Positions 1,299-49,942 of a DNA stretch of 58,218 bases are shown here, one piece after another; position 1 is the first letter of the stretch; the number at the start of each line of letters is the position of its first letter. A program made the translations under genes and the position numbers. The notes under the pieces were generated by a model. That model was not told the DNA's origin. It did not search any database and saw only the letters and a list, made by a program, of their open reading frames with translations. This DNA is from an uncultured virus (IMG/VR IMGVR_UViG_2140918032_000035) (lineage: Duplodnaviria; Heunggongvirae; Uroviricota; Caudoviricetes), in the IMG/VR virus record IMGVR_UViG_2140918032_000035; one strand, written 5' to 3'.

Positions 1299-1691
1299 AT
1301 GAGAGATTTTAAGATGCCTGATCTTGACAAGGTCATCGACAGACCTAAGGGTGAGGTAAGAAGCAAGACCGAAGCAGAATATGAGCAGGCTGCGACAGAA
1401 TTGTTCCGCACAGTCAAGTACATGTTCCCGGGCGAGACCAGATGGTTCGGTACAGACACTCCCGGTGTTAAAGCCGTCGGTGTCAGGAACGACAAGGACA
1501 GTCCCGTGCTTCTGATGAAACTCACCCGTTTCAATCCTGACGGCGGAGAAATGAGATACCGCCTCGGATCACTGAACGATTTGAGAAAATTGGACCAGCT
1601 TAGCGAGATCCGTTGGTTCGTAAATAATTGGCGTTCTCTGATGCCCAATCTTGAGCAGCAGGTTCAGCCGATTCCCGGAAGAAACTTTTAA
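1299..1691 (+). CDS. Hypothetical protein, C-terminus PGRNF
   Basis: ORF with AAGGAGG RBS. Confidence 0.75.
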   Translation: MRDFKMPDLDKVIDRPKGEVRSKTEAEYEQAATELFRTVKYMFPGETRWFGTDTPGVKAVGVRNDKDSPVLLMKLTRFNPDGGEMRYRLGSLNDLRKLDQLSEIRWFVNNWRSLMPNLEQQVQPIPGRNF

Positions 1692-1730
1692 TCCCGAGGA
1701 AACACTTTTTCACTTTAACGGAGGAAACTT

Positions 1731-2384
1731 ATGCACTTTATTGATACGACCGATTTATCGCTTTTAACAACTAACGCCGATACAATTAAATCCGATTGTT
1801 GCTTCAGGTACGCTCCGAAAGACTATGCCACCCATATCCTCTTTGACATGGACGGTACGCTGGCAAAGTTTCTTCGCTTGGGCGAACCTTATCACAGCTC
1901 TATTTTCGGAGAGCAGCATTTCCACGCAGAGCATTTATACAGAGAAGGTTACTTCTCCGATCTGCCTCCGCACATGAATGTCGTAAGAACCGTTAACTAC
2001 CTTCACCAGCACGAGAAGGAACTCGGCATCGTCGTCGGGATAATGTCATCCTTCCTTTCCGAATCCAGATTCGCTCTGAATGAGAAAAACGGATGGGTTG
2101 ATTATCACACGCCCGACATCGAAGAACGCATCTTCGTTCCCTGCGGTGTTCCCAAGGCTATGCAGCTTAACCGCGAAGCAGGTGATTGGTTCCTGGTTGA
2201 CGATCTGACAGACAATCTTGTTGAAATGGATAAGGCCGGTATGAACGGTATCAAGATCCTTAACGGCATCAATGATACCCACCACAGCTGGCAGGGGATC
2301 CGCGTTGATAAAGATGATCCCAACCTGGCACAATCGGTGCTGAACGCCGTTCACAAAATCCAAGAACAGAGACTTATGAAATAA
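1731..2384 (+). CDS. HAD-superfamily 5'(3')-nucleotidase-like protein
   Basis: Motif I FDMDGTL, motif IV LVDD..DNL; GGAGG RBS. Confidence 0.75.
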   Translation: MHFIDTTDLSLLTTNADTIKSDCCFRYAPKDYATHILFDMDGTLAKFLRLGEPYHSSIFGEQHFHAEHLYREGYFSDLPPHMNVVRTVNYLHQHEKELGIVVGIMSSFLSESRFALNEKNGWVDYHTPDIEERIFVPCGVPKAMQLNREAGDWFLVDDLTDNLVEMDKAGMNGIKILNGINDTHHSWQGIRVDKDDPNLAQSVLNAVHKIQEQRLMK

Positions 2385-2398
2385 GTCGGGAGGACAAC

Positions 2399-2833
2399 AT
2401 GCCTTTACACAAAAGATACGCCCAGCAGTTAGGCAGGACTGAGTCTAAATCCTGCGTCGTTCCTATCGACGGTATGGACTGCCTTTATGCACTTTCTCTT
2501 ACCAACACTGTGTTTTCAAGAACCGGTGATCCTAACCCTGCCGATTTCACTTCTACGATCGACAACGGTTTGATAACGGGAGACCTCAAGTGCATAGCCA
2601 AGGCTCAGATCAAAAAGCCTTTCTCTGAAGATACCATTCCAGGGGTGATCGTGACTTTGCGTACAGGCGTTGAAGAAGAGCGTTCGTATGATTTTTATGT
2701 CAGTGGGGCGGATATAGCGGATCATGTCCGCTCTGACAAAAAACCCGAACTCATCAATGCTGCTTTGGATAAGGTAGTAGCCCAGGTTACTCAGCGGATT
2801 GAAGACGCTTTGAGTTATACTGTTTTCCGATAA
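2399..2833 (+). CDS. Hypothetical protein
   Basis: ORF with GGGAGG RBS. Confidence 0.7.
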   Translation: MPLHKRYAQQLGRTESKSCVVPIDGMDCLYALSLTNTVFSRTGDPNPADFTSTIDNGLITGDLKCIAKAQIKKPFSEDTIPGVIVTLRTGVEEERSYDFYVSGADIADHVRSDKKPELINAALDKVVAQVTQRIEDALSYTVFR

Positions 2834-2870
2834 GAACTGCTTTAGCAGATAAGAAGAAAGGATATGAGAT

Positions 2871-3254
2871 ATGAGAGCCGTTGACATTGAATGGGACATC
2901 GACATTAACGAGGCTTTGGAAAAGATCCACCGTATGCCGGTTGCCGAGCAGGCAAAGACGATCGAGATGAATCCTCTGCATTATGAGAGACTGAGCATTG
3001 AGCACAGAGACGACCATATCAGGGACTATTATCATCATCGTCCGGGTGCTCTTTTGGACCTTATGCAACTGCCTACTGAAGTGGAGCTCCCTGAGGCTAT
3101 GACGGATACTGAAGATATTGCAAATTATCTGTCCGATCATTACGGTTTTTGCCATCGCGGATTTGAACTTCAGGGTAAGTCAAAACGCAGTCCTGTTATC
3201 TCGGATTATAACGACCTTTGTGACCTGGATCCGGGCACTTTTTTGTTCAGATGA
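2871..3254 (+). CDS. Hypothetical protein
   Basis: ORF with AAAGGA RBS. Confidence 0.7.
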   Translation: MRAVDIEWDIDINEALEKIHRMPVAEQAKTIEMNPLHYERLSIEHRDDHIRDYYHHRPGALLDLMQLPTEVELPEAMTDTEDIANYLSDHYGFCHRGFELQGKSKRSPVISDYNDLCDLDPGTFLFR

Positions 3255-3386
3255 TTCGAGAGTGTTTTTGCGGTTTTGAAGTGACATTTGCACAAGAAAA
3301 AAGCATCCATTTGGTGCAAAAATCAGCTTGAAAAATACCACCCACAACATCTTGGGTTTCCGCCCGATTTGGGACACTATATATAG

Positions 3387-3423
3387 TTGACTTCTTCGTA
3401 AAAATTGTATACGCTGTATACAA
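3387..3423 (+). promoter_or_regulatory. Probable TA-operon promoter with palindromic operator
   Basis: TTGACT at 3387; inverted repeat TTGTATAC-GCT-GTATACAA at 3405-3423 over the -10 region. Confidence 0.55.
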
Positions 3424-4139: not shown

Positions 4140-4155
4140 AAGGAGGCTATTTGGT

Positions 4156-4882: not shown

Positions 4883-5296
4883 ATGGATATTACAAAGTAT
4901 GAATATGAACTTCAGCAGATGTGTTCTCTTGAACTCAGTAACATTCTTCAGACTTATTACAACAAAGAGGCTGTCCGTGTTGTCGAACAGCATAATGTTC
5001 CGGGCCAGGACACGACTATCACTGCGACAGTATCGCCTAATCTCAAGATCGACGATTGTAAGAGTCTCGGCGAGGCGTTTACCAAGTTGGGTGAGCTGCT
5101 TGCTTATGGTGCCATGCTGATTGAAACGCTGCAGAAGATGAACATTGATCTTACTGCAGAGCAGTATAAGGCTATGCTTATCGCCGAAGCTAATCTTATC
5201 GACGAAGGTATGGAGATGGTCGGTCTGGCATCGTCTGATCAGTGCCGTGACAACATCGAAAGTTACCTTATGGACAACGGTTTGATGGGCCGTTGA
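4883..5296 (+). CDS. Hypothetical protein, C-terminus GLMGR
   Basis: ORF with GAGGTGA RBS. Confidence 0.7.
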   Translation: MDITKYEYELQQMCSLELSNILQTYYNKEAVRVVEQHNVPGQDTTITATVSPNLKIDDCKSLGEAFTKLGELLAYGAMLIETLQKMNIDLTAEQYKAMLIAEANLIDEGMEMVGLASSDQCRDNIESYLMDNGLMGR

Positions 5297-6202: not shown

Positions 6203-6583
6203 ATGCCTAACGATAAGCCTTTAGTTGAAGAGTATTTTGTCTGTACTGTCCGTCCGGATTCCTGTCACGCTGTTATGCGCTACAACGAAGACGGCGAGAC
6301 CAAGCAGATGATACATTTTGCAAGTAGAGAAGAAGCCAGAGAGTTCGCACGCGACATGGCCATTAAGTTCTGTACGGAAGCGTATCAGAAAAAGGATCCT
6401 GTTCGCTGTTTCCTGGCAAAGCACACACGAACCGGCGGCGGGTTGCCTTACCTTAATGAAGACATCGGCCGTTTCGGTAAAGACGGAGTCGAGATATTCC
6501 CTGAACAGATTTCTGCAGATACCTCCGCTCCCAAGGCTGAGGTGTCGCCGATCAATCAGCAGATCTCGTTCCTGGGTATGTAA
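6203..6583 (+). CDS. Hypothetical protein
   Basis: ORF in operon with GAGG RBS. Confidence 0.65.
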   Translation: MPNDKPLVEEYFVCTVRPDSCHAVMRYNEDGETKQMIHFASREEAREFARDMAIKFCTEAYQKKDPVRCFLAKHTRTGGGLPYLNEDIGRFGKDGVEIFPEQISADTSAPKAEVSPINQQISFLGM

Positions 6584-6593
6584 GGAGGTCAAC

Positions 6594-6878
6594 ATGGCAC
6601 GCAAAGAGGGCTTGGGAGTTTATGGTATCTTCGCCAAACTTCACGATAAAGTCGATAGCGATAAGCACCCTATATTGTCAGCTGTTCTTTATGATGCTTC
6701 CTGTAAGCCCGGCACTCCCGAGTATTACGCAGGTCCGTCGAGATGGCCCGAGCCCATAAATCGTTCGGACAGTCTCGCTCCGGAATGGAGCATTGCTCAT
6801 GACCATAATATGCGAGCGATGATCGAGCATGATATGAGACAGAAAGACTTGATGGAAGAGATACGGAGTGGACGATAG
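6594..6878 (+). CDS. Hypothetical protein (N-terminus MARKEGLG, C-terminus SGR)
   Basis: AAGGAGG RBS places the start at 6594. Confidence 0.7.
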   Translation: MARKEGLGVYGIFAKLHDKVDSDKHPILSAVLYDASCKPGTPEYYAGPSRWPEPINRSDSLAPEWSIAHDHNMRAMIEHDMRQKDLMEEIRSGR

Positions 6879-6881: not shown

Positions 6882-7529
6882 ATGGCAAAGATATTAGGTG
6901 AATATATCAATCCCGATATGGGTTCCCTGGAACCGCCTGCTGTTTTTTCTGATGCGGATCTTAGCAATTATCCTGTTGGCCGACAGAATCCTTTTTGGCA
7001 TCGTCAATTTGAAAAGATCGAGTTTGAAGGCTTTGGTCTGGTTGACGAAAAAGATTGGCCTGAGCTGATAGGCTGTAAAGAACCTAAAACTTTACCGTTA
7101 TTTATCGAGGGCCACCCTTTTATTGTTGTTTGTGATCCTGCAACTGTTAGGGTTAGTGAAGATAAGATTCCGTTTGATGAAGTTAAACTTATTAAAGATA
7201 TGAAAGATTCACGCTTGCTGGTTCCGATTCTCTTGTCTTGTTGGCAAGGTAAGGTGGATGGTTATATTTTTGGCCCCGTGTTTATTTGTGGGGTTGATAA
7301 TTTGGATGAGGCTACTAAAGAACCTAAGGCTATTTTGAAGTCTCATCCTGTTGATCTTTGTGTAGAGGAGATTCAATTTTTACAGTATTGGTGGGGTGTT
7401 GGAGAAACAGGTATCGGTCACGAAGCTGATCGTTTAGAAATCAGGGAACAGATGGTTCGTAATCCAAGCGGGTGCCCTGATTGGTGTTTGCCGGGGTTTG
7501 TTAATGACGAATACTTGGGAAGGTCATAA
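6882..7529 (+). CDS. DUF3846-like hypothetical protein, C-terminus LGRS
   Basis: IFGPVFICG motif; visibly T-rich DNA. Confidence 0.6.
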   Translation: MAKILGEYINPDMGSLEPPAVFSDADLSNYPVGRQNPFWHRQFEKIEFEGFGLVDEKDWPELIGCKEPKTLPLFIEGHPFIVVCDPATVRVSEDKIPFDEVKLIKDMKDSRLLVPILLSCWQGKVDGYIFGPVFICGVDNLDEATKEPKAILKSHPVDLCVEEIQFLQYWWGVGETGIGHEADRLEIREQMVRNPSGCPDWCLPGFVNDEYLGRS

Positions 7530-7541: not shown

Positions 7542-7799
7542 ATGGCACGCAAATCAGGTTTAGGTTTTTTCGGCGTGGTAAGACAGAGTGCCCGTCGCGA
7601 TCATCAGGCTTTTAACGCTACTCTCGGACAGGTCATTCCCGCGAGAGAACATCCGCATCTGATGGAACAGGCTGCGGAAGAAAGAGCTGCGAGACCTGCA
7701 CCAAAGTCTCACAGTTCGCACAGACATTATGATCCGAGGTCTTCGGCTTCTTTAGGAGAGACAAGACCGGCCGATGAGAACTTCGGCCGCGGTATGTGA
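7542..7799 (+). CDS. Hypothetical protein (N-terminus MARKSGLG, C-terminus GRGM)
   Basis: AAGGAGG RBS. Confidence 0.7.
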   Translation: MARKSGLGFFGVVRQSARRDHQAFNATLGQVIPAREHPHLMEQAAEERAARPAPKSHSSHRHYDPRSSASLGETRPADENFGRGM

Positions 7800-8384: not shown

Positions 8385-8442
8385 CATAACCGTTTACCCT
8401 AAACGGGACATTTTATAAAACATTATTTTGGAGGAAACATTT

Positions 8443-9363
8443 ATGAAGACTTTTGAAGAGTTTAGAGACAGTATTGTTGCAGATCTGCCCGGAATACTTC
8501 CCGAGAATATGGCAGACGCGAAGATCTCGGTCCAGCCGATGAAGAAGAACAGCAGAGAGGTTACCGGCATTCAGCTTTGTAAGCCTATGGGCAACGGTAT
8601 GAGCGGCGGTCCGGTATTCTATGCGGATCTGCTTTATGATGATTACCAGAAGGGTAAAGAGTATGACGCTATCATTGATGACCTGGCTCACGCTTTGCAG
8701 ACTATGATCCCGCCTAAGACTGACGGTGTCCTGGACAAGATCAAGGATCCTGCCGGTTGGCGCATTGCCGCAGTCCCGGTCAGCAGCGTTAAGGTGGAGA
8801 GGTTCAGCGGTGCCGAGATCATCGGTGATATTGCAGCTGTTCCTTATGCTGTGATCGATGCTGATGAGCGTGGTATGTCCACTGTATCTATTACCAATGA
8901 CCTTTTGGCTCTCATTGATAAGTCTGCGTCGGAGGTCCTGGAGACTGCCAAGGCTAATATGTCTCAGGTCGCTACTGCCAAGACGATGCTTGAAGTCATC
9001 TGTGGTATGATGCCTCCCGGAATGGCAGAGGCAATGATACCCAATGAAGGCCCTACAATGATAGTCGTTTCTACGAACACAGAGAAGCAGGGCGCAGGTG
9101 TCGTTTTTGATAAGACCTTTATGGATTCCGTTTGCGAGAAGTACGCAGACCTGAAGAACGGTGCTATCGTTCTTCCCTCGTCCACCGATGAGTGTATTCT
9201 TCTCCCTCTGGACTTCGGCGATCCCGGTCGTCTTACCGATATGGTTACGAACATCAACGCAGACTGCGTGGAAGAATCCATGAGACTTTCCGACTCGGTA
9301 TTTGCTTACTACCCCGGTGTCGGACTCACACCTGCGGATCCTACGCTGTTAGCCGGAAGATGA
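8443..9363 (+). CDS. DUF5688-family protein, C-terminus LAGR
   Basis: MKTFEEF start, KNS..TGI, GAG, VLPSS.DE.ILLP, LSDSVF.Y motifs. Confidence 0.7.
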   Translation: MKTFEEFRDSIVADLPGILPENMADAKISVQPMKKNSREVTGIQLCKPMGNGMSGGPVFYADLLYDDYQKGKEYDAIIDDLAHALQTMIPPKTDGVLDKIKDPAGWRIAAVPVSSVKVERFSGAEIIGDIAAVPYAVIDADERGMSTVSITNDLLALIDKSASEVLETAKANMSQVATAKTMLEVICGMMPPGMAEAMIPNEGPTMIVVSTNTEKQGAGVVFDKTFMDSVCEKYADLKNGAIVLPSSTDECILLPLDFGDPGRLTDMVTNINADCVEESMRLSDSVFAYYPGVGLTPADPTLLAGR

Positions 9364-9605: not shown

Positions 9606-9944
9606 ATGGTTCAACTCAAGTTGACTTTTATGGGCGACGGTTCCCTTTCGATCTTCAATCCCGAAACAGGTGAGAGTCTGAAGGTCGATCAGGACCAGAA
9701 GTTCCAGCTTTACGATTCTATTCAGTTGGATTATTACAAGGAAGATGTCCGCGATCATATTAACGGAACTCTCGATCCTGAGACAGCCGCAGCTTTGGTA
9801 GTTGACAGTGAGTTCATTACACAGACAGCGGTTGATTATCAGAGTGCTATCCGTGAGAGCCAGACTATATGCGAGGCTGAGCACGAGCATCTTGAGGATA
9901 CCGTTAACGAAGCTGTTGAGAGATGCAACGGCCGTCAGGCATAA
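9606..9944 (+). CDS. Acidic hypothetical protein (YxEDV family), C-terminus GRQA
   Basis: AAGGAG RBS; paralogous to 9957 and 10877. Confidence 0.7.
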   Translation: MVQLKLTFMGDGSLSIFNPETGESLKVDQDQKFQLYDSIQLDYYKEDVRDHINGTLDPETAAALVVDSEFITQTAVDYQSAIRESQTICEAEHEHLEDTVNEAVERCNGRQA

Positions 9945-34834: not shown

Positions 34835-34884
34835 TCCCGCATTTTTGTTATACTCAATCTATACAATACAAAGGAGGCTTTTTT

Positions 34885-35256
34885 ATGAGCACCTGGATCA
34901 GCGGAGACATTAAGTTTAAGCCGGGCGTAGGCGATGTTGAGGGTTATCAGAGAGTCAACAGTGCAGCCTGGGATCTGGGCATCAAGGACCTGCTTGATAA
35001 CAGCGGAGATACAGGGCCGGATTCCATCGAGTTCTGCGGCGATCTTCCCAACCTAAGCGAGACTGTTATTCACCAGCTCTTTGCTATGGTTGCTGACATC
35101 GTAGAATCGGCAGAGATCATTATGAGCGGAGACAGTGAATGCAAGATCACCGTCACGGACGGTGTCCTGCACAGAGCAGATGCCCGCACCGTATATGACC
35201 TCAATCAGCAGGACATAAACCTTACAACCATTCAGTTCGATGCAGGGAGGAGTTAA
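34885..35256 (+). CDS. Acidic hypothetical protein, tandem paralog 1, C-terminus AGRS
   Basis: AAGGAGG RBS; WISGDI.F start. Confidence 0.75.
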   Translation: MSTWISGDIKFKPGVGDVEGYQRVNSAAWDLGIKDLLDNSGDTGPDSIEFCGDLPNLSETVIHQLFAMVADIVESAEIIMSGDSECKITVTDGVLHRADARTVYDLNQQDINLTTIQFDAGRS

Positions 35257-35258: not shown

Positions 35259-35636
35259 ATGGGTACTTATTCTTATGTTGACGGTACTATTCATTTAAGA
35301 AGCACATCCGATGACGCGATTGAACAGTTACAGCAGATCGCAGGCAATATAGGCAATATGGAAGATCTCTTTGAAGACTGCGGAATAAGGCCCGGTCTTA
35401 TTGACATCGGAACCAATATGCACAATCTCGGCAGCAACGACCTTATCAAGTTCTTTGCCGCTGCCAACGATCTCATCGAGTCTGCTACGCTCTTTATCGA
35501 ACCTGATTGCGAAGTCCCTTGGAAGCTCGAAGTCAAGGACGGAAAGCTCAACACTTCTGACGGACATGTCGAGTACACTCCGAACAACGAGAACATCGAT
35601 CTTGCAACATATCTATCTGAACCCGGGAGGTCTTAA
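35259..35636 (+). CDS. Acidic hypothetical protein, tandem paralog 2, C-terminus PGRS
   Basis: YVDGTI.L..IESA..KDG.L..IDLA.Y. Confidence 0.75.
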   Translation: MGTYSYVDGTIHLRSTSDDAIEQLQQIAGNIGNMEDLFEDCGIRPGLIDIGTNMHNLGSNDLIKFFAAANDLIESATLFIEPDCEVPWKLEVKDGKLNTSDGHVEYTPNNENIDLATYLSEPGRS

Positions 35637-37090: not shown

Positions 37091-37168
37091 ATGAGACATT
37101 TATTCCGTTTGATGAGAGTCGGTCGCAGAGCCCGTTGTATGTGGATCATAGGCCGCAGGATATTATGA
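37091..37168 (+). CDS. 25-aa Arg-rich peptide MRHLFRLMRVGRRARCMWIIGRRIL
   Basis: Strong AAGGAGGG RBS with correct spacing. Confidence 0.55.
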   Translation: MRHLFRLMRVGRRARCMWIIGRRIL

Positions 37169-37202
37169 CTTTTGTTCTAAGGCTTTTAAGGAGATAAGAA
37201 GA

Positions 37203-37667
37203 ATGTCAATGCAGATAGAATATACTCAGGAGAATCTGGCAAAGCTCAAGCGGATCGAGCGGGAAGCGTATGCGGGTACCGGCTATATGCAGATGCAGCA
37301 TTGCGAATCCTGGTCGGATGTCGCGGCTTACTGCGAATGCTCGCTTGAGAACCTTCACATAGCGTTCATCAATGACGGTTATATCATTGCTGCCTGCCAT
37401 GACGGATTTATGGAGGTTGTAGATCTTGCGTCTTCAGGCAGGAATATGAATCTGTTTGATGCCTGGGAGTTCCTCCGAGAACTCGGTAAGCCGATGTTCC
37501 TCGATGCCAGAGAGAAGACTTCTTACCGTCTTATCAAGGGGCTCGAACGCAGAGGCGAGATCCATATTATCGAGGATACCTCTCACGATTGGGACGGCGA
37601 GATATTTCACGAGATCAAGTGTGAGTTTGCCGATCTGCACAGATACTATGAGCCCGGCCGTAATTAA
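37203..37667 (+). CDS. Hypothetical protein, possibly GNAT-like, C-terminus PGRN
   Basis: AAGGAG RBS; EVVDLAS..LDAREKTSY. Confidence 0.65.
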   Translation: MSMQIEYTQENLAKLKRIEREAYAGTGYMQMQHCESWSDVAAYCECSLENLHIAFINDGYIIAACHDGFMEVVDLASSGRNMNLFDAWEFLRELGKPMFLDAREKTSYRLIKGLERRGEIHIIEDTSHDWDGEIFHEIKCEFADLHRYYEPGRN

Positions 37668-40439: not shown

Positions 40440-41027
40440 ATGATCCTAATTATCGGTCGCTCAGGTTCGGGAAAGGATTTCCTGGCACGCGAGCTTGCCA
40501 AAAACGGCTTATCACAAGTCAAGTCGTACACAACGAGACCTCCCCGCTATGAGGGCGAGGATACTCACATCTTTATCTCAGCAGAAGAAGCGTCCAGGAC
40601 AGAAGGCAAGATCGCCACAACTGTCATCAACGGCTACGAATACTTCGCAACTGCCGAGCAGATGAAAGAAAACGATGTTTACATCATCGATCCGAGAGGC
40701 ACCGCAGAGCTCTTACAGAACTGTCCTGAGGTGTCTTTTGATATTTGTTACCTTCAGGCAGACGATTCCTGCCGCCGTGCCATGGCAGTAGGTCGTGGTC
40801 AGGATATGGCAAAAGAAGCGGAGATCTACCAGATGCGTAATGCTGACGAGGATGCTCAGTTCCGTGAGTTTGAAGGAATGCTCAAGGATTCTTATGCTTT
40901 TTACGCTTTCAAGAACAAGTATCCGAATGTACGCCAGGTGTTGATCGGCCATAACGATTACCGCCCGGAGACAATGTCCGAGCTGGTAAGCTCGCTTACC
41001 GCCGGTATTGCGGGAAGAGGTGTCTGA
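40440..41027 (+). CDS. Guanylate kinase-like protein, C-terminus AGRGV
   Basis: GRSGSGKD P-loop, SYTTRPPR, H.F, YIIDP.G. Confidence 0.85.
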   Translation: MILIIGRSGSGKDFLARELAKNGLSQVKSYTTRPPRYEGEDTHIFISAEEASRTEGKIATTVINGYEYFATAEQMKENDVYIIDPRGTAELLQNCPEVSFDICYLQADDSCRRAMAVGRGQDMAKEAEIYQMRNADEDAQFREFEGMLKDSYAFYAFKNKYPNVRQVLIGHNDYRPETMSELVSSLTAGIAGRGV

Positions 41028-41029: not shown

Positions 41030-41404
41030 ATGAGTGACCTTACAAATGATGGCTGTGCCGAGTATATCTTGATCATTTCCAATAACCGCGATCCCTCATC
41101 TACCATGGCTGAGAAGATAACATGCCAGCCGGATGAAGTATTGCGATTTGTTGAGGCCAGGGCAAAGAAGCTGTGTACTATGCTTCACGAGAAAGGCAAG
41201 CGGGTTGACGGACCTCCGATGCAGACGAATGCCGGTATGGGTATCCAGGTCTTTACTGTTCAGAGTCAGGGCTTTTGTATGAACCTTACTCTCGTTCCGA
41301 TAGACCGTGCCCGGGAGATAGACCGCGGACAAGTCCTGGAAGAGACCAAGCAGTTTGAAACCGAATACGAAAACCTTTTCGGCGGATTGGAAACAGGACG
41401 CTGA
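41030..41404 (+). CDS. Hypothetical protein, C-terminus ETGR
   Basis: Operon context. Confidence 0.65.
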   Translation: MSDLTNDGCAEYILIISNNRDPSSTMAEKITCQPDEVLRFVEARAKKLCTMLHEKGKRVDGPPMQTNAGMGIQVFTVQSQGFCMNLTLVPIDRAREIDRGQVLEETKQFETEYENLFGGLETGR

Positions 41405-42072: not shown

Positions 42073-42645
42073 ATGGTCGCGAGAAATCACATCATTACGG
42101 GAACGGCCTCGGTCGTCTGTTTGGGCACTGCGGTTTATACTCTCGCGTACAATGTCGATGTGGGTATAATATCTGTTGCTTGCAGCCGACTGATCGAACA
42201 GGCAGCAGGGGTTAATTCGCTATACAAATTATGTGCGATCCCCCTGTTTGTTCTCGGCCTCATCCTGCCTGATTGTGACCTTCGCACCTCTGTCGTAGGA
42301 AAGTTCTTTCACCTTCCGTGTAAGCATCGGACCTGGACGCATTCCGTCTGGTTCGTGCTTCCGTCGGTGATCGCCGGGATATGGTTTCTTCCTCTGTGGG
42401 CATTGGCTTTTGCTATTGTCATCCACGACTTCTGGGATAATCTGTCCAACGGCGGCGTGTGTTTCTTTTATCCTATTACCAAGTACAGGGACATGCCTAA
42501 CGGTGCCCACTTCAAGCCCGGCCACAAGGGATTTTATGCTACGGGTACTGCAGATGAGACTTTCATGACTGTTATCGCGTGCTGTATTGCGGCTCTTGCA
42601 ATCGGCTATGCGTATCTATTTTTCAAGATGAGGTGCGGAGTATGA
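42073..42645 (+). CDS. Membrane metal-dependent hydrolase (YdjM-like)
   Basis: H near N-terminus, LPDCD, HRTWTHS, H...D, GV..FYP. Confidence 0.8.
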   Translation: MVARNHIITGTASVVCLGTAVYTLAYNVDVGIISVACSRLIEQAAGVNSLYKLCAIPLFVLGLILPDCDLRTSVVGKFFHLPCKHRTWTHSVWFVLPSVIAGIWFLPLWALAFAIVIHDFWDNLSNGGVCFFYPITKYRDMPNGAHFKPGHKGFYATGTADETFMTVIACCIAALAIGYAYLFFKMRCGV

Positions 42646-43343
42646 CTTTGGAAGAATATATCCAGGTGAAAGATATGAACTATGATGAGTTCTGTGATCA
42701 TCTGAAACAGAAATACGGTAAGGCTCAGTACGATTACTTCAGGTTTCGTACAGGCGGGTATAAGCCCGGCGTGTTTGCCAGGGAGCCGAAGATCTCCCGC
42801 ACGAGTGAGGGACTGTTTGCCCACCATGTTAAAGAAGATCGTGCCATCCTGCTTTCTGTTCCGGATGTTGCGATCCGTCATCCGAGAGAATATCAGAGTA
42901 AAGAAAACATCGTCTATTGCGATTGGCTGGAGCATCTTTACGCTCATATCCTCATAGCAGAGCATCCCGCTCCCAATGCTGAAGAAGGCGTGGGGCTCGG
43001 AGGCTGTATCAATTACCTGGTACCGCAACTCAATGATATTTTTGCCGGTTACCAGCCGGGCAAACAATGGGAAAAGACTTGTGCCGATAAGGTGCTGACT
43101 ACTGACGGTAAGAGCAATTATGATTGCTATATGGTCCTGTTATCCAGGCTCAAGATGATATTTCTGAAGACTACCAGCTGCGATCCTGACATGGCTACTT
43201 ATTTCCTCTGCAATACTGCACAGGAAGACATTGTCGATCCGGAGATCCGCAGCAATCTGGATACCGTTTATAAGGACATCAAGAACTTACCGGCAGATCA
43301 TTGTCTTTCCCCGGAGAACTTTATGTTAGAAGGGAGAGGATAG
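42642..43343 (+). CDS. Hypothetical protein with HNH-like His cluster, C-terminus EGRG
   Basis: GLFAHH..ENIVYC..LEH..AH. Confidence 0.65.
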   Translation: MTLEEYIQVKDMNYDEFCDHLKQKYGKAQYDYFRFRTGGYKPGVFAREPKISRTSEGLFAHHVKEDRAILLSVPDVAIRHPREYQSKENIVYCDWLEHLYAHILIAEHPAPNAEEGVGLGGCINYLVPQLNDIFAGYQPGKQWEKTCADKVLTTDGKSNYDCYMVLLSRLKMIFLKTTSCDPDMATYFLCNTAQEDIVDPEIRSNLDTVYKDIKNLPADHCLSPENFMLEGRG

Positions 43344-44285: not shown

Positions 44286-44930
44286 ATGCGTTATATTGAC
44301 CACATCAGAAGATTGTCAGCTTACCGCCATGTCGTACAGGATAATTGGTCCTATGAACAGGTGGCAAAAGTCTATAATGTAACACTTAACGCAGTTGAGG
44401 CGATGATGCACGGGCGTAAGATGGTCGCTACCCGCGGGCTTGGTGAGGCAGATGTCGCTCTTATCTGCAGCGAGCGTGATGCAGGGTGTCCTTTGAGCGA
44501 TATAGCTCTATATTGGAACCTGCCCGAATCCGTTATTCTCGGGCTCAACAAAAGGGATCCTTATGTGCCCGGCAGAAGACCGAAGCCGGCAGGGTATGTC
44601 TTCCCCAGGGACAAGTATGATGCCCTGATCGCCGAGTATGACAGCAGACCTCCGAAGACGGAGACGCGTAAATCCATCGCTGCCAAGTACGGTCTTACGG
44701 AGAATCAGTTGTCCTGGATAGTATCCGGCAACGCCCAAAAGTCCAGGGTAGTATCGCCTGAGGTCAGAGCCCAGATCATGGAAGATATTGAGGCCCTGAA
44801 CAGTAAGAGCATCAAGTACCTTGCCCAGAAATACGCGGTACCTTACAGCATTGCGAGAAGCTGGGTGGGTAACCATCTGAAAGAGAAAAAAGAAGCAGAG
44901 GCCGACGGTCTGACCGGCCCTGTAAGATAA
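44286..44930 (+). CDS. Multi-HTH DNA-binding protein
   Basis: Four HTH-like units: SYEQVAKVYNV, LSDIALYWNL, RKSIAAKYGL, IKYLAQKYAV. Confidence 0.65.
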   Translation: MRYIDHIRRLSAYRHVVQDNWSYEQVAKVYNVTLNAVEAMMHGRKMVATRGLGEADVALICSERDAGCPLSDIALYWNLPESVILGLNKRDPYVPGRRPKPAGYVFPRDKYDALIAEYDSRPPKTETRKSIAAKYGLTENQLSWIVSGNAQKSRVVSPEVRAQIMEDIEALNSKSIKYLAQKYAVPYSIARSWVGNHLKEKKEAEADGLTGPVR

Positions 44931-46539: not shown

Positions 46540-46824
46540 ATGTTTGTAACACTCAAGGACGGTTCTCACGGCGAGATCACTCTTGCTGAAGCACAGCGTA
46601 TCGCAATGGATATAGATGCGGAAGAAAAGGAATATGTCCGTCTTAATCTCTCAAAGGTATTGGGACCGGAGATGGCTTCCATTCCGCCTGTCGTTGCTTC
46701 GTTTACGGACATGTGGCGTTCCCTCCGTGAAGAATACGGCGAAGAAAAGGCTATGAGAAAGATAATGAATGACCTGAACAACGGAGTCATCGTTATTGAT
46801 ACTACGGGAGGTGCAAGGCATTGA
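46540..46824 (+). CDS. Hypothetical protein
   Basis: GGAGG RBS before MFVTL. Confidence 0.65.
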   Translation: MFVTLKDGSHGEITLAEAQRIAMDIDAEEKEYVRLNLSKVLGPEMASIPPVVASFTDMWRSLREEYGEEKAMRKIMNDLNNGVIVIDTTGGARH

Positions 46825-47783
46825 GCTACTCATCTGAGAATTGGTTTCGTCCCGGTGCTGCACCCGACACTGCAGATCTTACTTCGCCCTGGTTCGTAAC
46901 CGCCTACTCTGAAGTAACAGCTGACAAGGTCAAGGATTTTCTCAGCGTTACAGGTGGCAGGCTTCCTAACGGATGCCCTGATGCCGAGGCTTTGGCTTCC
47001 GCCATCCAGGTCGCCTGGAAGGGACATCTGGTTGACCGTTTCGTTCCCAGATCTTCCGGCTTCGTGCTTTTGGATCATCTGGTCAGGTTTGCCGCAGATA
47101 ATTGGCAGGCGATAGCTACTTACAAGGCTTTATCTCCATCCGCCAAGCCTAACTGCTACCTCTCACGAAGAGGGAATGTTCCCGGCATAGTCTATGCTGA
47201 CAAGTTCCTCTATATGAAGGGCAACAAGTGGACATACGATCCGAACTTTGATGCGACAGGGCTCCCGCCTATGTCGGATTTTGCTTTTAAGAGAAGGTTC
47301 GACAATGCCGATAAGTATATTGAGTCCTTTAAGCACATGACGGACTTTCGTACCGTGGTCGCTCTGGACTCTCAGTGCTTCGACGGTATCTTCTCACTGA
47401 TGAATCTGCTCCGCACTCTCGGTGCCGAGAAGGTGCTCCGCCCCGTCGTTATATTCGTGGGCAAGCCTGATATGTCGGCACGCGTGTCGGTAGGAGACAA
47501 GAAGGTCAGTCTCTTTGATGCACTCAAGGACTATGCCGAGGTGTTCGTATGCGAAACGCCCGGCCTGGTGCCTCTCTGCATCGGATGTAACCGCTCCGTG
47601 CTCATTACTTCGGACAGTGACCTCTGCGACATAGCAGCATCAAGCGGTGTCAAGGTGGTTGCGTACTGCGAGCTGTCGGCACAAAACGAATTTCCTAAGG
47701 CCATAATGTGTGTGGAGCCCGGTCACGAAGACCAGATCACAGTCGATAGTCTGACTCGATTATTCGGCCGCGGCATAGGTTAG
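46821..47783 (+). CDS. Hypothetical protein, C-terminus FGRGIG
   Basis: 320-aa ORF, TTG start with GGAGG RBS. Confidence 0.7.
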   Translation: MSYSSENWFRPGAAPDTADLTSPWFVTAYSEVTADKVKDFLSVTGGRLPNGCPDAEALASAIQVAWKGHLVDRFVPRSSGFVLLDHLVRFAADNWQAIATYKALSPSAKPNCYLSRRGNVPGIVYADKFLYMKGNKWTYDPNFDATGLPPMSDFAFKRRFDNADKYIESFKHMTDFRTVVALDSQCFDGIFSLMNLLRTLGAEKVLRPVVIFVGKPDMSARVSVGDKKVSLFDALKDYAEVFVCETPGLVPLCIGCNRSVLITSDSDLCDIAASSGVKVVAYCELSAQNEFPKAIMCVEPGHEDQITVDSLTRLFGRGIG

Positions 47784-47927: not shown

Positions 47928-48092
47928 AAATATGGAACCTGACTTGCTGCATCTGGCGGCGGTGCTGATACGCGACGGTATATCAGGGATATGCTGTATC
48001 AGTCCAAAGCAGACCGGGGTGACCGTAAAGCTGGTCTTACATAAGTAAGAGAGTGGGAATAGGCTCGGCAAACAGATACCAAGGAGGGTTTT

Positions 48093-48752
48093 ATGTTTGA
48101 GGTGGACAATCTGGAGCTTGTTATGGCTAAGCCGGGTGATATTATCTTTATCTCGGATTTCTGGCTCAGAAAGCAGAAAGAGACATACAGGAACCATCAC
48201 GGTATGTGGGCAGGAAGCAGACCTTATCTGGTCCTCGCCACCGGCGGTAACAGGGAAAAGTTGTTCGCGGTACCTATGACTTCCTCGGTCGGCAGGATCG
48301 CTGATGAGATCGAGGCGGCGCAGGTAAGAAACAAGAGTTCCAGGGATATGCCGATGGCTCTGTTCTGTACCACGCTGTATCCGAACAACGGCAGACATAA
48401 CGGAGCGATAGTCCTCAACTGCCCTGTCGTTGTCCCCGCGTACTCCAAGTATTGTCATCTGCCCCGGACATTTATCGGATCCAGACTCAACGAGTTGTGG
48501 CCTCCGAGCGGACATGAGTTCCGCACCAAAGAGCTTCTGAACCGTGCCCGTGAAGGGTACGACAAAGCAAAACTCTTATCGGATTACTGTCCGATGAATT
48601 ACGACTATGACGGTGTCTATTCGGACCTGTATAGATATTGCGACAAACTGTATAAACGCAAGGCGACTCTTACCAATCCTGACGCTTATGACAGATGGAG
48701 CAATCACGAGATAGAAAAGATACGGAAAGCCTTTGAGGGCTTGAAGGCGTAG
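48093..48752 (+). CDS. PemK/MazF/ToxN-fold endoribonuclease-like protein
   Basis: PGDIIF, SRPYLVL, AVPMTSS; paralog-like to 43346. Confidence 0.6.
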   Translation: MFEVDNLELVMAKPGDIIFISDFWLRKQKETYRNHHGMWAGSRPYLVLATGGNREKLFAVPMTSSVGRIADEIEAAQVRNKSSRDMPMALFCTTLYPNNGRHNGAIVLNCPVVVPAYSKYCHLPRTFIGSRLNELWPPSGHEFRTKELLNRAREGYDKAKLLSDYCPMNYDYDGVYSDLYRYCDKLYKRKATLTNPDAYDRWSNHEIEKIRKAFEGLKA

Positions 48753-48757
48753 AAAGG

Positions 48758-49045
48758 TTGAAAGTTATGAAGTCTTACGAAGAGTTTAAGAATGAGATCT
48801 TCTCTTCCGGGCAGCCTGAGGGCAGTATTCCGGCAGAGGACGCGTGCTGGGCATTGTATTGTGCCGAGCAGGTACTTGATTCGATCGACCAGGCTCAAGA
48901 TGAGGAACTCATGAAAGTCGATCCGACGGTCGATGATGACATTCACATCTCACTTAACAGTCTGGCTTCCAGACTTCGTGAGGCTCTCGGTATAAAAAGC
49001 TATTATGGTGATACTGACGGTTCGGGATTTGTCCCGGATCCGTGA
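48758..49045 (+). CDS. Acidic hypothetical protein
   Basis: ORF following the PemK-like gene. Confidence 0.6.
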   Translation: MKVMKSYEEFKNEIFSSGQPEGSIPAEDACWALYCAEQVLDSIDQAQDEELMKVDPTVDDDIHISLNSLASRLREALGIKSYYGDTDGSGFVPDP

Positions 49046-49049
49046 TATG

Positions 49050-49087
49050 AAGCGTTGGTCTGTTCCGGCCGACGCTTTTACTATTTG
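49050..49087 (+). terminator. Terminator-like hairpin before the relaxase
   Basis: AAGCGTTGGTC-TGTTCC-GGCCGACGCTT followed by TTACTATTT. Confidence 0.55.
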
Positions 49088-49108
49088 TGAAAGGATAAGA
49101 AAGAGGAT

Positions 49109-49942
49109 ATGGCAGTAACAAAGATTTGGGCCGTTCATAGTAATGTTGACGGTGTTGCGGGTTATGATGTCAACTCGCTGAAGACGGAGTTCGATGAGCG
49201 TTCGCTCGCAGATTCCCTGTCTCTTGTTGTCGATCCTCTGAAGACTGTTGACGGCAAGCTCATCGCAGGCGTGAACTGTGATCCGAGAAAAGCCGCAGCA
49301 GAGTTCAATGAGGTTAAAGAGAAGTTCGGTAAGACTGACGGAGTTCTTGCTTATCACGGATACATTTCGTTTTCGAATTCCGACCGTCTCAACCCCATTG
49401 ATGTCCTGTCTGTCAGTGCGGAGATAGCAAAAGAGATGTGGGGAGATGCGTTCCAGGTACTCCTGGCTGTTCATACGAATACGGAGACCTTACACGCTCA
49501 TTTCCTCGTCAATTCGGTATCGTTCATTGACGGACATAAGGCTTCGGATAATGAGAAGAATTATTACAGACTGCGTGCTATTTCAGACCGCATCTGCGGT
49601 AAGTATGACCTTATCATTCCCGAGCCTTCCAAAGAGGAAGAGATAGACTATCGTGAGTTGGAAAAACGCCTTGTCGAGATCCGTATGAAAAGTCCTACGG
49701 TCGAACTGCTCAAGGCGAATCTGTCCAAGGAGGGAATGACCTACTGCGGTACCGAATATATCAAACTTAAAAACGGCAAGTATCTGAAGTTGAGTAAGAT
49801 CAGTCCGAGCATCGCGAAGCTCTTTGAGTACAAGTCTGCCGATGTTGCATCCAAGCCTGAGCTCAAGCCCGGCGAACCTGCAGCGGCGGCTCCCGATCTC
49901 GGTCTCGGCAGGAACTTCAGTTACGAGTTTAACAGGGGGTAA
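49109..49942 (+). CDS. Relaxase/mobilization nuclease (MOBP-like), short
   Basis: MAVTKIW, AYHGYISF, AVHTNT..LHAHFLVNSVS..DG.K HUH motifs. Confidence 0.9.
   Translation: MAVTKIWAVHSNVDGVAGYDVNSLKTEFDERSLADSLSLVVDPLKTVDGKLIAGVNCDPRKAAAEFNEVKEKFGKTDGVLAYHGYISFSNSDRLNPIDVLSVSAEIAKEMWGDAFQVLLAVHTNTETLHAHFLVNSVSFIDGHKASDNEKNYYRLRAISDRICGKYDLIIPEPSKEEEIDYRELEKRLVEIRMKSPTVELLKANLSKEGMTYCGTEYIKLKNGKYLKLSKISPSIAKLFEYKSADVASKPELKPGEPAAAAPDLGLGRNFSYEFNRG

What the first reader, a model, noticed from the sequence alone, without database searches (positions are those of the whole stretch)
1299..49942. Shared C-terminal Gly-Arg tag on ~17 unrelated cargo proteins: candidate mass protein-export signal for the T4SS
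Seen: C-termini are PGRNF (1299), LMGR (4883), SGR (6594), LGRS (6882), FGRGM (7542), LAGR (8443), NGRQA (9606), YGR (28979), EGRGV (29710), AGRS (34885), PGRS (35259), IGRRIL (37091), PGRN (37203), AGRGV (40440), ETGR (41030), EGRG (42642) and FGRGIG (46821). The relaxase ends LGLGRNFSYEFNRG. Near variants are PGVMR, SPAR, GPVR, GGARH, PGVGIS and IGLGL. The dipeptide uses varied codons (GGC CGT, GGC CGC, GGA CGA, GGA CGC, GGA AGA, GGG AGG) and also occurs before terminators or non-coding DNA (4883, 8443, 46821), so Shine-Dalgarno overlap explains only a few cases (34885, 35259, possibly 42642; 28979 overlaps the next ATG). No lipoprotein, membrane protein or T4SS structural protein here has the tag. 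Known: VirD4-type coupling proteins recognise short Arg-containing C-terminal signals, as in Agrobacterium Vir effectors and RSF1010 MobA. Inference: the element may inject a large suite of tagged proteins (guanylate kinase-like, DUF5688, acidic paralogs, HNH-like) into recipients. An element-specific C-terminal degron is an alternative.
Basis: partly seen in the sequence, partly recalled or inferred. Interest (0 to 1): 0.88.

Follow-up and report, generated by a model that had tools for sequence, protein, structure and literature searches.

The report
Shared Gly-Arg tails on plasmid proteins
About a third of the soluble proteins of a large gut-bacterial conjugative element end in the same tiny Gly-Arg tail, which relatives of its DNA-transfer enzyme also carry, so it is probably an address label for the element's secretion machine, though this is untested.

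Summary
In my hand-picked set of 75 plus-strand genes, 16 proteins carry Gly-Arg in their last 6 residues, against about 1 expected. Controls gave 2.5% in off-frame ORFs of the window and 1.7-2.0% in other Clostridial element loci. Only two tagged proteins are paralogs. Four or five cases overlap the next gene's ribosome-binding site, and the excess survives without them. No tagged protein has a membrane segment.

The window is a Firmicutes-type conjugative element with a MobA/VirD2 relaxase, a CD1115-family VirD4, PrgI and VirB4.

The main new result is comparative. 13 of 28 short relaxases of this lineage end in x-G-R-x after a variable, disordered linker. None of 54 long relaxases of classical relatives has Gly-Arg, but 31 end in Arg. 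In those elements neighbouring cytoplasmic proteins also end in Arg.

The tail style of the known secretion substrate therefore matches that of the cargo. This supports a coupling-protein addressing tag, with confidence about 0.5. A degron remains possible, and nothing was tested directly.

The parts
1299..1691 (+). 130-aa soluble protein of unknown family, tail ...PIPGRNF
   Evidence: GR is invariant in the 14 full-length listed members of its >=90% cluster while flanking residues vary. 49 nt to the next start, so no SD overlap.
4883..5296 (+). 137-aa acidic protein, ends ...GLMGR
   Evidence: 11 of 11 listed cluster members end LMGR. Followed by about 460 nt without an accepted gene. Codons GGC CGT.
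6318..6878 (+).
   Evidence: Codons GGA CGA. The next ATG lies 3 nt after the stop; any SD overlap is weak.
6882..7529 (+). 215-aa acidic protein, tail ...EYLGRS
   Evidence: GRS or GRL in 14 of 15 listed cluster members; the other does not share this C-terminus. The real SD, GGAGG, lies after the stop.
7542..7799 (+). 85-aa protein, tail ...ENFGRGM
   Evidence: Codons GGC CGC. The SD lies after the stop.
8428..9363 (+). DUF5688 protein (likely start 8443, 306 aa), ends ...TLLAGR. The tail lies beyond the Pfam domain.
   Evidence: Pfam PF18941, E 2.9e-38, domain ends at residue 294 of 311. 10 homologues of 82-99% identity all end AGR. Among 149 distant representatives 12 have a GR tail and 29 end in R.
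9606..9944 (+). 112-aa acidic protein, tail ...CNGRQA
   Evidence: GRQA or GRLA in all 13 listed cluster members. Codons GGC CGT.
28877..29401 (+). Protein of about 174 aa (contains the masked run 28890-28949), ends ...VTYGR
   Evidence: The GR codons overlap the ATG of the next gene (29391), so this case is ambiguous.
29710..30189 (+). 159-aa acidic protein, tail ...SEGRGV
   Evidence: 15 of 15 listed cluster members. The SD of the next gene lies after the stop.
34801..35256 (+). 151-aa acidic paralog, tail ...DAGRS
   Evidence: GGG AGG overlaps the SD of the next gene, so this is weak evidence on its own.
35259..35636 (+). 125-aa acidic paralog, tail ...EPGRS. The third paralog, 35640-36047, ends SPAR.
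   Evidence: GRS or GRA in 15 of 15 listed cluster members. GGG AGG overlaps the next SD.
37203..37667 (+). 154-aa protein, tail ...YEPGRN
   Evidence: The ortholog in L108 (71% identity) ends EIGRYT and the one in L118 (55%) ends FGHNR. Codons GGC CGT.
40440..41027 (+). P-loop kinase of the guanylate-kinase-like type, 195 aa, tail ...IAGRGV
   Evidence: phrog_1815, E 1.8e-28. AF2 pLDDT 90.8, with the last 4 residues below 50. An Arg 2-3 residues from the end is nearly invariant down to about 50% identity; the Gly is present only at >=85% identity. Within the cluster the residues after GR vary: GRGV, GRSV, GRLTV, GRQTV, GRVALL. The codons overlap the next SD.
41030..41404 (+). 124-aa protein, ends ...LETGR
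   Evidence: Codons GGA CGC. No SD overlap.
42579..43343 (+). 254-aa protein with a SAV1803-related domain, tail ...LEGRG
   Evidence: NCBIfam NF053682, E 7e-36. GGG AGA GGA overlaps the next SD. The ortholog in L108 (51% identity) ends PGLHY, so the tail is lost there.
46821..47783 (+). 320-aa backbone protein conserved upstream of the relaxase, tail ...LFGRGIG
   Evidence: Orthologs end LFGLGRG (68% identity) and RVERTVG (37%). Followed by non-coding DNA. Codons GGC CGC.
49109..49942 (+). Short MobA/VirD2-type relaxase, 277 aa, ends ...GLGRNFSYEFNRG
   Evidence: Pfam PF03432, E 6e-33. AF2 model is folded to residue 244; residues 245-277 have pLDDT below 50. 13 of 28 short-clade homologues end in x-G-R-x. 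The orthologs in L111, L112 and L118 (55% identity) end VIGRS or FTGRGV.
52242..54095 (+). VirD4-like coupling protein (CD1115 family), the proposed reader of the tail. Its own end, KKNKKRKAA, is conserved.
   Evidence: Pfam PF02534, E 3.5e-60. Plasmid hits are annotated as CD1115 family. Orthologs of 63-66% identity occur in L111 and L118. Two N-terminal TM-like segments.
55707..58216 (+). PrgI-family and VirB4-like T4SS genes, untagged. VirB4 runs off the end of the window.
   Evidence: Pfam PF12666, PF19044, PF12846.
25544..26713 (+). Near-variant: 389-aa protein ending QVRGGNK
   Evidence: The ortholog in L108 (43% identity) ends QVWEGRGY, a full GR tail.
44286..44930 (+). Near-variant: 214-aa protein ending GLTGPVR
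   Evidence: The ortholog in L108 (64% identity) ends EAALGR.
37091..37198 (+). Doubtful as a gene.
   Evidence: translation. Not included in my counts.

Best explanation
The Gly-Arg tail is a short linear motif, x-G-R followed by 0-3 residues, at a disordered C-terminus. It addresses cytoplasmic proteins of this conjugative element to its type IV secretion machinery.

Proposed mechanism. The free, flexible C-terminus with its Arg is bound by the VirD4-like coupling protein or by an element-encoded adaptor next to it. The relaxase-DNA complex and a set of soluble accessory proteins are thereby recruited to the channel. At least some of them are delivered into the recipient together with, or ahead of, the DNA.

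Shown here:
- the enrichment;
- that it acts at the protein level;
- its conservation in orthologs;
- its restriction to soluble proteins;
- its presence on relaxases of the lineage;
- a parallel terminal-Arg habit in classical CD1115-type elements.

Inferred, not shown: binding to VirD4, and export.
For: 1. Real and acting at the protein level. 16 of 75 proteins are tagged against about 1 expected. Background is 1.7-2.5% in four control sets. Three Gly and five Arg codons are used, and in most cases the true SD lies after the stop.

2. Under selection. In >=90% clusters of 10 tagged proteins, GR is kept in nearly all full-length members, while neighbouring residues vary. The number and identity of trailing residues also vary. 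Orthologs of 55-85% identity keep the tail. Two near-variants in the window (RGGNK, GPVR) have full GR tails in L108. Related metagenome loci carry 27 GR tails in 311 ORFs, or 8.7%.

3. Exposed. The last 4 residues of the kinase-like protein and residues 245-277 of the relaxase have pLDDT below 50.

4. Only soluble proteins are tagged: 0 of 16 tagged have a TM-like segment, against 22 of 59 untagged. No T4SS component is tagged.

5. The known T4SS substrate carries it. 13 of 28 short relaxases have GR in the last 6 residues, and it is the only conserved element after a variable linker.

6. Tail style matches between relaxase and cargo across lineages.
- Long relaxases: 0 of 54 have GR, 31 of 54 end in R, and 49 of 54 have R in the last 4.
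- In genome loci, 35 of 37 full-length relaxase relatives end in R.
- The PcfB-like neighbour ends RDRDAR or similar.
- In the L104 element, 9 consecutive cytoplasmic proteins upstream of VirD4 end in R, while VirD4, PrgI, VirB4, sortase and CHAP do not.
- In those loci, relaxase-strand ORFs end in R in 83 of 427 cases, against 23 of 335 on the other strand. The terminal Arg codons are mostly CGC and AGA, and SDs lie after the stop.

7. Precedent from papers.
- Passages of a review (PMC10025392) describe a C-terminal Arg motif on Agrobacterium VirB/D4 substrates.
- The abstract and passages of PMC8406263 report that an F-plasmid T4SS moves six plasmid maintenance and SOS-inhibitor proteins into recipients.
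Against: - There is no direct evidence of binding or transfer.
- The tails are not net positive (mean -1.3 over the last 20 residues, with 1-3 Arg), unlike the known Agrobacterium signal.
- The window's own relaxase ends FNRG. Its GLGRNF is GLGKNF in a 97%-identical homologue.
- 15 of 28 short relaxases lack GR in the last 6 residues. Some end GLNP or GLNS.
- pCF10, the best-studied CD1115-type system, has PcfG ending KPKL, so a terminal Arg is not universal.
- The match of tail style between relaxase and cargo rests on essentially one GR lineage against the rest. It is one evolutionary contrast, not many.
- The genes form a long same-strand array upstream of the relaxase, as leading-region genes do (passages of PMC11541004). 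They could be expressed in the recipient and need no protein transfer.
- One ortholog lost the tail (42579 compared with L108).
Confidence: 0.5

Rival explanations
1. The tail is an element-wide C-terminal degron. A host or element protease or unfoldase recognises the exposed x-G-R end. The relaxase and the establishment proteins are therefore short-lived, which limits their cost after transfer or after induction.
For: The tail is C-terminal, disordered and exposed, occurs only on cytoplasmic proteins and is conserved. The tagged genes lie in a one-directional array upstream of the relaxase. Leading-region genes are known for a transient burst of expression (passages of PMC11541004; PMC8406263). 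Extended DUF5688 homologues end either in GR/R or in ALA/LAL/AL-like ends that recall ssrA tags (the resemblance is my recollection). The element carries its own tmRNA, so it does invest in protein quality control.
Against: I know of no bacterial degron that ends in Gly-Arg (recollection; none turned up in the searches). The relaxase must survive long enough to be transferred and to recircularise the DNA. Presumed host ORFs in the same loci neither avoid nor favour a terminal Arg (6.9% against a background of about 5.5-6%). The matching tail style of relaxase and cargo within a T4SS lineage is easier to explain by an element-encoded reader than by a host protease.
Confidence: 0.2
2. The tail docks proteins onto an element-encoded hub in the donor, such as the relaxosome, a PcfB-like protein, or the protein encoded after the relaxase. 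It serves assembly or regulation, and no export follows.
For: The same comparative data apply. PcfB-like proteins and the protein encoded after the relaxase carry the tail themselves: RDRDAR in classical elements and RSAGR in L111.
Against: Sixteen unrelated small proteins of unknown function would all have to join one donor complex. No candidate hub was identified; Pfam finds nothing in the neighbouring genes.
Confidence: 0.1
3. The tails are a by-product at the nucleotide level. Purine-rich GGR-AGR codons serve as the Shine-Dalgarno site of the next gene, or as a stop-codon context that tunes termination, translational coupling or tmRNA tagging.
For: Four tails overlap the next SD (34801, 35259, 40440, 42579) and one overlaps the next ATG (28877). 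From memory, rare Arg codons before a stop promote tmRNA tagging in E. coli. The element encodes a tmRNA.
Against: 10 of 69 proteins remain tagged after removing 6 overlap cases (p = 1.5e-6). Eight of the 16 Arg codons are CGN, which is not SD-like. Three tails are followed by more than 240 nt without a gene. Off-frame ORFs of the same DNA show 2.5%. GR is kept while the downstream codons change. Half of the short relaxases of other elements share the motif.
Confidence: 0.05
4. The exposed Arg is a site of post-translational modification, either arginine phosphorylation or ADP-ribosylation, that switches these proteins on or off.
For: The Arg is conserved and solvent-exposed. The element encodes an ADP-ribosylglycohydrolase at 28016-28858 (Pfam E 3e-34).
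Against: No transferase or kinase was found in the window. A modification site does not need to sit within 0-3 residues of the C-terminus. Nothing links the hydrolase to the tagged set.
Confidence: 0.05

Closest known systems
C-terminal Arg-containing transport signal of Agrobacterium VirB/D4 substrates (VirE2, VirE3, VirF, VirD5; also RSF1010 MobA)
   Same: A short, unstructured signal at the extreme C-terminus in which Arg is the critical residue. It is shared by unrelated proteins and by a relaxase and is read by a VirD4-type coupling protein. Source: passages of the review PMC10025392; the list of substrates is from memory.
   Different: The Agrobacterium signal is a net-positive cluster of several Arg. 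Here a single Arg preceded by Gly sits in an overall acidic tail. The host is a Gram-positive Clostridial element with a CD1115-family VirD4. About 30% of the element's soluble proteins in the window carry it.
Protein transfer by conjugative T4SSs (F-like pED208: ParA, ParB1, SSB, ParB2, PsiB, PsiA)
   Same: A conjugation machine moves several plasmid-encoded establishment proteins into recipients, dependent on the coupling protein and the relaxosome (PMC8406263; abstract and passages).
   Different: The passages I read report no shared C-terminal motif for those substrates. That system is Gram-negative. Here only the motif is seen, not transfer.
Classical CD1115/CD1110-type conjugative elements of Clostridia and enterococci (pCF10 family; the ICE in record NZ_OY725736.1)
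   Same: The same T4SS gene set and order: MobC or relaxase, PcfB-like, VirD4, PrgI, VirB4, plus a surface adhesin and a sortase. Relaxase and neighbouring proteins tend to end in Arg.
   Different: Their relaxases are about 450-750 aa and end in ...ER...FR or ...YR without Gly (0 of 54 have GR). The window's lineage has a 270-330 aa relaxase and a GR-style tail. pCF10 PcfG ends KPKL. The window's VirD4 is only 31-46% identical to plasmid-database members.
C-terminal degrons such as the ssrA tag (...LAA)
   Same: A short, exposed C-terminal tag that can sit on any protein.
   Different: ssrA-type tags end in small hydrophobic residues. These tails end in G-R followed by polar residues. No protease link is known.

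Membership tests
Firmicutes conjugative element with a CD1115-type VirD4 / CD1110-type VirB4 T4SS | MobA/VirD2-domain relaxase, VirD4 coupling protein, PrgI (VirB3-like) and a VirB4-like ATPase, all on one strand | tested here: met
   Pfam PF03432, PF02534/PF12696, PF12666, PF19044/PF12846. The best plasmid-database hits to the VirD4 are annotated as CD1115 family.
Agrobacterium-type VirB/D4 C-terminal transport signal | Located at the extreme C-terminus in an unstructured stretch | tested here: met
   The Arg lies 0-3 residues from the end in 16 of 16 tagged proteins. pLDDT is below 50 for the tail in two AF2 models.
Agrobacterium-type VirB/D4 C-terminal transport signal | Net positive charge with several Arg in the last 20-30 residues (consensus R-x7-R-x-R-x-R, recalled from Vergunst 2005; the review passage mentions only an Arg motif and positive charge) | tested here: not met
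   Net charge of the last 20 residues ranges from -3 to +1 (mean -1.3), with 1-3 Arg.
Agrobacterium-type VirB/D4 C-terminal transport signal | Present on a proven T4SS substrate of the same system (the relaxase) | tested here: inconclusive
   13 of 28 short-clade relaxases have the GR tail. The window's own relaxase ends FNRG, and its upstream GR is GK in a 97%-identical homologue.
Agrobacterium-type VirB/D4 C-terminal transport signal | The tail is necessary and sufficient for VirD4-dependent transfer of a reporter | not testable with these tools
   This needs Cre-fusion or similar mating assays.
ssrA-like C-terminal degron | Ends in small hydrophobic residues (LAA-like) and depends on ClpXP or a related protease | tested here: not met
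   The tails end in GR, GRS, GRN, GRG(x) or similar. Protease dependence cannot be tested here.
Shine-Dalgarno overlap artefact | GR codons are purine-rich and lie 5-10 nt upstream of the next start codon | tested here: not met
   True for 4 of 16 tails, plus one overlap with an ATG. In the rest the SD lies after the stop, or there is no downstream gene. The enrichment persists without these cases.

The most novel reading that the evidence does not exclude
A tiny C-terminal 'postal code' (x-G-R followed by 0-3 residues) is the substrate-addressing signal of a Gram-positive conjugative T4SS. This element of at least 120 kb from gut Clostridia uses it to send its relaxase and about a third of its soluble accessory proteins, presumably establishment and anti-defence factors, into the recipient as proteins. 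The code comes in lineage-specific styles, GR here and a terminal ER/AR/FR in classical CD1115-type elements. These styles co-evolve with the relaxase and coupling-protein clade. If so, substrates of Gram-positive T4SSs could be read directly from sequence.
Probability: 0.35. Interest if true: 0.9.

Novelty: new variant of a known kind. Interest (0 to 1): 0.72.

Why it matters
As far as I know, and as far as my searches showed, it is not known what marks a protein as a substrate of a Gram-positive conjugative T4SS. No paper turned up that describes a shared C-terminal Gly-Arg or terminal-Arg tail on relaxases and accessory proteins. A motif of two residues that is shared by relaxases and many unrelated element proteins would turn this question into simple experiments: delete or transplant the tail and measure transfer. 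It would also allow candidate transferred proteins to be predicted in the many conjugative elements of gut Clostridia. If the tail proves to be a degron instead, it would still be a new element-wide turnover tag.

Tried and rejected
- **Paralogy as the cause.** Rejected: there is only one tagged paralog pair.
- **SD overlap as the cause.** It explains 4-5 of 16 tails.
- **A general habit of related elements.** Rejected for GR: 1.7% in 49 relaxase loci, 2.0% in 20 DUF5688 neighbourhoods, and 0 of 87 in two plasmid-record loci.
- **Close relatives in databases.** None in the plasmid database (one distant DUF5688 hit). None in viral contigs with two proteins. The first metagenome scan, with the DUF5688 alignment, found nothing. 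The second, with the kinase-like alignment, gave L106-L134.
- **Core DUF5688 genes of Lachnospiraceae.** The family matched in 371 of 401 genomes. The 30 best loci have no extension and no GR tail, so that family as a whole is not tagged.
- **Function of the tagged proteins.** NCBIfam and PHROGs gave names for only 2 cargo proteins plus the relaxase. Pfam found nothing for the genes around the relaxase.
- **Whole genome of the window.** Not held.
- **Complex prediction of VirD4 with a tagged protein.** No verdict exists either way.
- **A link between the tails and the element's tmRNA.** Considered, but no evidence was found beyond their co-occurrence.

Full report
**What the window is.** Almost all genes lie on the plus strand. 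Pfam identifies these genes:
- a MobA/VirD2-type relaxase (49109-49942);
- a VirD4-type coupling protein (52242-54095);
- a PrgI-family protein (55707-56144);
- a VirB4-like ATPase that runs off the end of the window (56141 onward);
- a 2637-aa surface protein with TQ-ester and SpaA domains (14161-22074), next to a sortase (22221-23081);
- an AbiEii-like protein, a GNAT, an ADP-ribosylglycohydrolase, a YdjM-like membrane protein and a DUF5688 protein.

The best plasmid-database relatives of the VirD4 are annotated 'VirD4-like, CD1115 family' and are 31-46% identical. This is therefore a Firmicutes-type conjugative element. Exact copies of its proteins occur on metagenome contigs of up to 120-125 kb. 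No whole genome is held for the window. Three short runs are masked as N.

**The observation.** I picked 75 plus-strand ORFs by hand as genes; no gene finder was used.
- 16 of the 75 proteins have Gly-Arg within the last six residues. The Arg is 0, 1, 2 or 3 residues from the end in 5, 5, 5 and 1 cases.
- Inside the same proteins, GR occurs 43 times in 15664 positions, which predicts about one tagged protein.

Four control sets give background rates:
- off-frame and minus-strand ORFs of the same DNA, 6 of 241;
- greedy ORFs in 49 loci around related relaxases, 13 of 762;
- 20 DUF5688 neighbourhoods in Lachnospiraceae, 7 of 351;
- two plasmid-record loci, 0 of 87.

These greedy ORF sets include some spurious ORFs, so the rates are approximate. 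The contrast is 16/75 against 20/1200, p = 1.2e-11.

**Trivial causes.**
- Paralogy: all-against-all BLASTP finds one tagged paralog pair, 34801/35259.
- Overlap with the next ribosome-binding site: this is real for 34801, 35259, 40440 and 42579. At 28877 the GR codons overlap the next ATG. At 6318 the overlap is doubtful. At 29710 the true SD lies after the stop. Removing six cases leaves 10 of 69, p = 1.5e-6.
- Codon choice: Gly uses GGA, GGC and GGG. Arg uses AGA, AGG, CGT, CGC and CGA.
- Three tails are followed by more than 240 nt without an accepted gene.

The signal is therefore in the protein.

**Who carries it.** None of the 16 tagged proteins has a TM-like hydrophobic segment, against 22 of 59 untagged proteins. 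No T4SS component, adhesin or sortase is tagged. So 16 of 53 soluble proteins are tagged. Most tagged proteins are acidic and of unknown family. Only three have a family name: DUF5688, a guanylate-kinase-like P-loop protein, and a protein with a SAV1803-related domain. The tails are not basic. The last 20 residues have a mean net charge of -1.3 and contain 1-3 Arg.

**Is it conserved?**
- In the >=90% clusters of ten tagged proteins, GR is kept in nearly all full-length members. The residue before it varies, and so do the number and identity of the residues after it. In the kinase-like protein, for example, these are GRGV, GRSV, GRLTV, GRQTV and GRVALL.
- In that family the Gly is present only in relatives of >=85% identity (3 of 120). 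An Arg two or three residues from the end stays nearly invariant down to about 50% identity: ERRIS, SERYA, ESRHC, FNRHS, ACRTA.
- Of 149 DUF5688 representatives no more than 50% identical to one another, 12 have a GR tail. Most of those end exactly in HGR, RGR, TGR or KGR after a long hydrophilic extension. 29 end in Arg.
- The core of the DUF5688 family in Lachnospiraceae has no extension and no tail.
- A metagenome scan with the kinase-like alignment returned related elements. GR tails occur in 27 of 311 ORFs there: 6 of 38 in L108, 3 of 20 in L111 and 2 of 25 in L118.
- Ortholog mapping shows both retention and turnover. 37203 (EPGRN) becomes EIGRYT. 46821 (FGRGIG) becomes FGLGRG. The window's near-variants RGGNK and GPVR are EGRGY and ALGR in L108. 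42579 lost its tail in L108. Untagged proteins stay untagged.
- AlphaFold models place the tail outside the fold. The kinase-like protein has pLDDT 90.8 with the last four residues below 50. The relaxase is folded to residue 244, and residues 245-277 are below 50.

**The key comparison: relaxases.** Homologues of the window's relaxase fall into two groups.
- Short proteins (no more than 330 aa, 38-97% identical) belong to the window's lineage. 13 of 28 have GR in the last six residues: VIGRS, EIGRV, IAGRS, GIGRF, FIGRS, FTGRGV, MPGRN, PLGRI, SMGRR, KNGR, EGRGIL. In the alignment this x-G-R-x is the only conserved element after a variable, low-complexity linker.
- Long proteins (more than 330 aa) belong to classical elements. 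0 of 54 have GR, 31 of 54 end in Arg, and 49 of 54 have an Arg in the last four residues.
- In genome loci, 35 of 37 full-length relaxase relatives end in Arg within otherwise different tails: HYER, TWER, DIYR, DLCR, TIIR and others.
- Their terminal Arg codons are mostly CGC (30) and AGA (27), and the SD lies after the stop.

**The same habit in neighbouring genes of classical elements.**
- The PcfB-like protein after the relaxase ends RDRDAR or similar.
- In the element in record NZ_OY725736.1, nine consecutive cytoplasmic proteins upstream of VirD4 end in Arg. They are three hypothetical proteins, an SNF2 protein, a DUF3991/TOPRIM protein, a DUF3846 protein, the relaxase, PcfB and one more hypothetical protein. 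VirD4, PrgI, VirB4, the sortase and the CHAP protein do not.
- Across the 49 loci, 83 of 427 ORFs on the relaxase strand end in Arg, against 23 of 335 on the other strand.
- In an Enterococcus plasmid of the same T4SS type, the relaxase ends SEQER and PcfB ends KGQER.

The tail style of the relaxase, the one protein that must pass through the T4SS, thus matches the tail style of the surrounding cytoplasmic proteins. It is GR in this lineage and a terminal Arg without Gly in the classical ones.

**Evidence against the export reading.**
- The window's own relaxase ends FNRG. The GR nine residues upstream is GK in a 97%-identical homologue.
- 15 of 28 short relaxases lack the GR tail, and some end in GLNP or GLNS.
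- pCF10 PcfG ends KPKL, PcfB ends KGRKL and PcfD ends PTRF, so a terminal Arg is not universal in this T4SS type.
- The contrast between the two tail styles is essentially one lineage against the rest.
- The tails do not fit the net-positive Arg cluster described for Agrobacterium (review passages).
- The tagged genes form a long one-directional array upstream of the relaxase. That is how leading-region genes are arranged (passages of PMC11541004). Such genes can be expressed in the recipient, so they need not travel as proteins.

**Most likely mechanism.** I take the tail to be a short linear motif at a free, flexible C-terminus. It would be bound by the VirD4-like coupling protein or by an adaptor encoded next to it. 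That would bring the relaxase and a set of soluble accessory proteins to the secretion channel, and probably into the recipient. Confidence is about 0.5.

Two precedents exist in the papers I read:
- C-terminal Arg motifs on Agrobacterium VirB/D4 substrates (review passages).
- Transfer of six plasmid proteins by an F-like T4SS (abstract and passages of PMC8406263).

The enrichment, the protein-level selection, the exposure, the restriction to soluble proteins and the sharing with relaxases are shown here. Binding and transfer are inferred.

**Rival explanations.**
- A turnover tag (degron), about 0.2.
- Docking to a hub in the donor without export, about 0.1.
- A nucleotide-level by-product, about 0.05.
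- A modification site on the Arg, about 0.05.

**Comparison with what is known.** It works like the Agrobacterium C-terminal signal, but it is not a member of that class. The position and disorder criteria are met, the positive-charge criterion is not, and dependence on VirD4 cannot be tested here. My literature searches found no description of a shared Gly-Arg or terminal-Arg tail on relaxases and accessory proteins of Gram-positive elements. 'DUF5688' occurs in no paper of the library. The library lacks most subscription journals, so this is not proof of novelty. I rate the finding a new variant of a known kind.

**Limits.**
- The gene calls are my own.
- The loci used for comparison are fragments.
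- The rest of the element, of at least 120 kb, was not seen.

Noticed in passing
window 36116-36492 (+): A full-length tmRNA gene lies inside the element (Rfam RF00023, 134 bits, E 2e-52). ARAGORN predicts the tag ANETELAVA, which ends AVA rather than the usual LAA. It is flanked by tagged genes, and no smpB was seen. The related element L108 has one too (tag ANEPELAVA, L108 6008-6391). One paper calls a 190-kb Bifidobacterium plasmid the smallest plasmid known to carry a tmRNA (PMC10832533, passages)..
   Followed up: partly
window 32030-32104 (+); L108 5270-6848: The element carries tRNA genes. The window has tRNA-Thr(CGU). L108 has tRNA-Thr, tRNA-Met and tRNA-Lys around its tmRNA.
   Followed up: partly
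window 5664, 13758, 24579, 38490, 46095 (and 1267), all +: A box, TTGTCGGATAAGGCAT, recurs in intergenic DNA ahead of gene blocks: 6 matches against 0.25 expected. It sits about 35 nt upstream of a TATAAT- or TATACT-like hexamer. This looks like a shared regulatory or promoter element of the array. A second motif, CAGATAAGGAG, occurs 4 times against 0.05 expected, just before start codons.
   Followed up: partly
L104 (NZ_OY725736.1 423610-465268) 4151-19795; L001-L049: In classical CD1115-type elements, the relaxase, the PcfB-like protein, and the SNF2, TOPRIM and DUF3846 proteins end in Arg after Lys/Arg/Glu-rich tails. In L104 this holds for 9 consecutive genes. Among genome loci, 35 of 37 full-length relaxase relatives end in R. 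This looks like a wider pattern than the finding itself.
   Followed up: partly
proteins P0012-P0159 (DUF5688 representatives): DUF5688 proteins with long C-terminal extensions end either in GR/R or in ALA, LAL, AL or AM-like ends that recall ssrA-type tags. The family matched in 371 of 401 Lachnospiraceae genomes searched, and no paper in the library mentions it.
   Followed up: no
window 49948-51589 (+): The two ORFs after the relaxase (49948-50679 and 50531-51589) are in different frames on either side of the masked run 50622-50666. They probably form one gene of about 545 aa. Its relatives in L111 (541 aa, ends RSAGR) and L118 (593 aa) are single ORFs. Pfam finds no domain.
   Followed up: partly
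window 52242-54095 (+), C-terminus: The coupling protein's own C-terminal end (SPKKNKKRKAA) is strongly basic. It is conserved in the orthologs of 63-66% identity in L111 and L118.
   Followed up: no
window 14161-23081 (+): A 2637-aa surface protein with five TQ-ester domains and SpaA domains lies next to a sortase. This is presumably the mating adhesin of the element. A relative of 38% identity is in L118.
   Followed up: no
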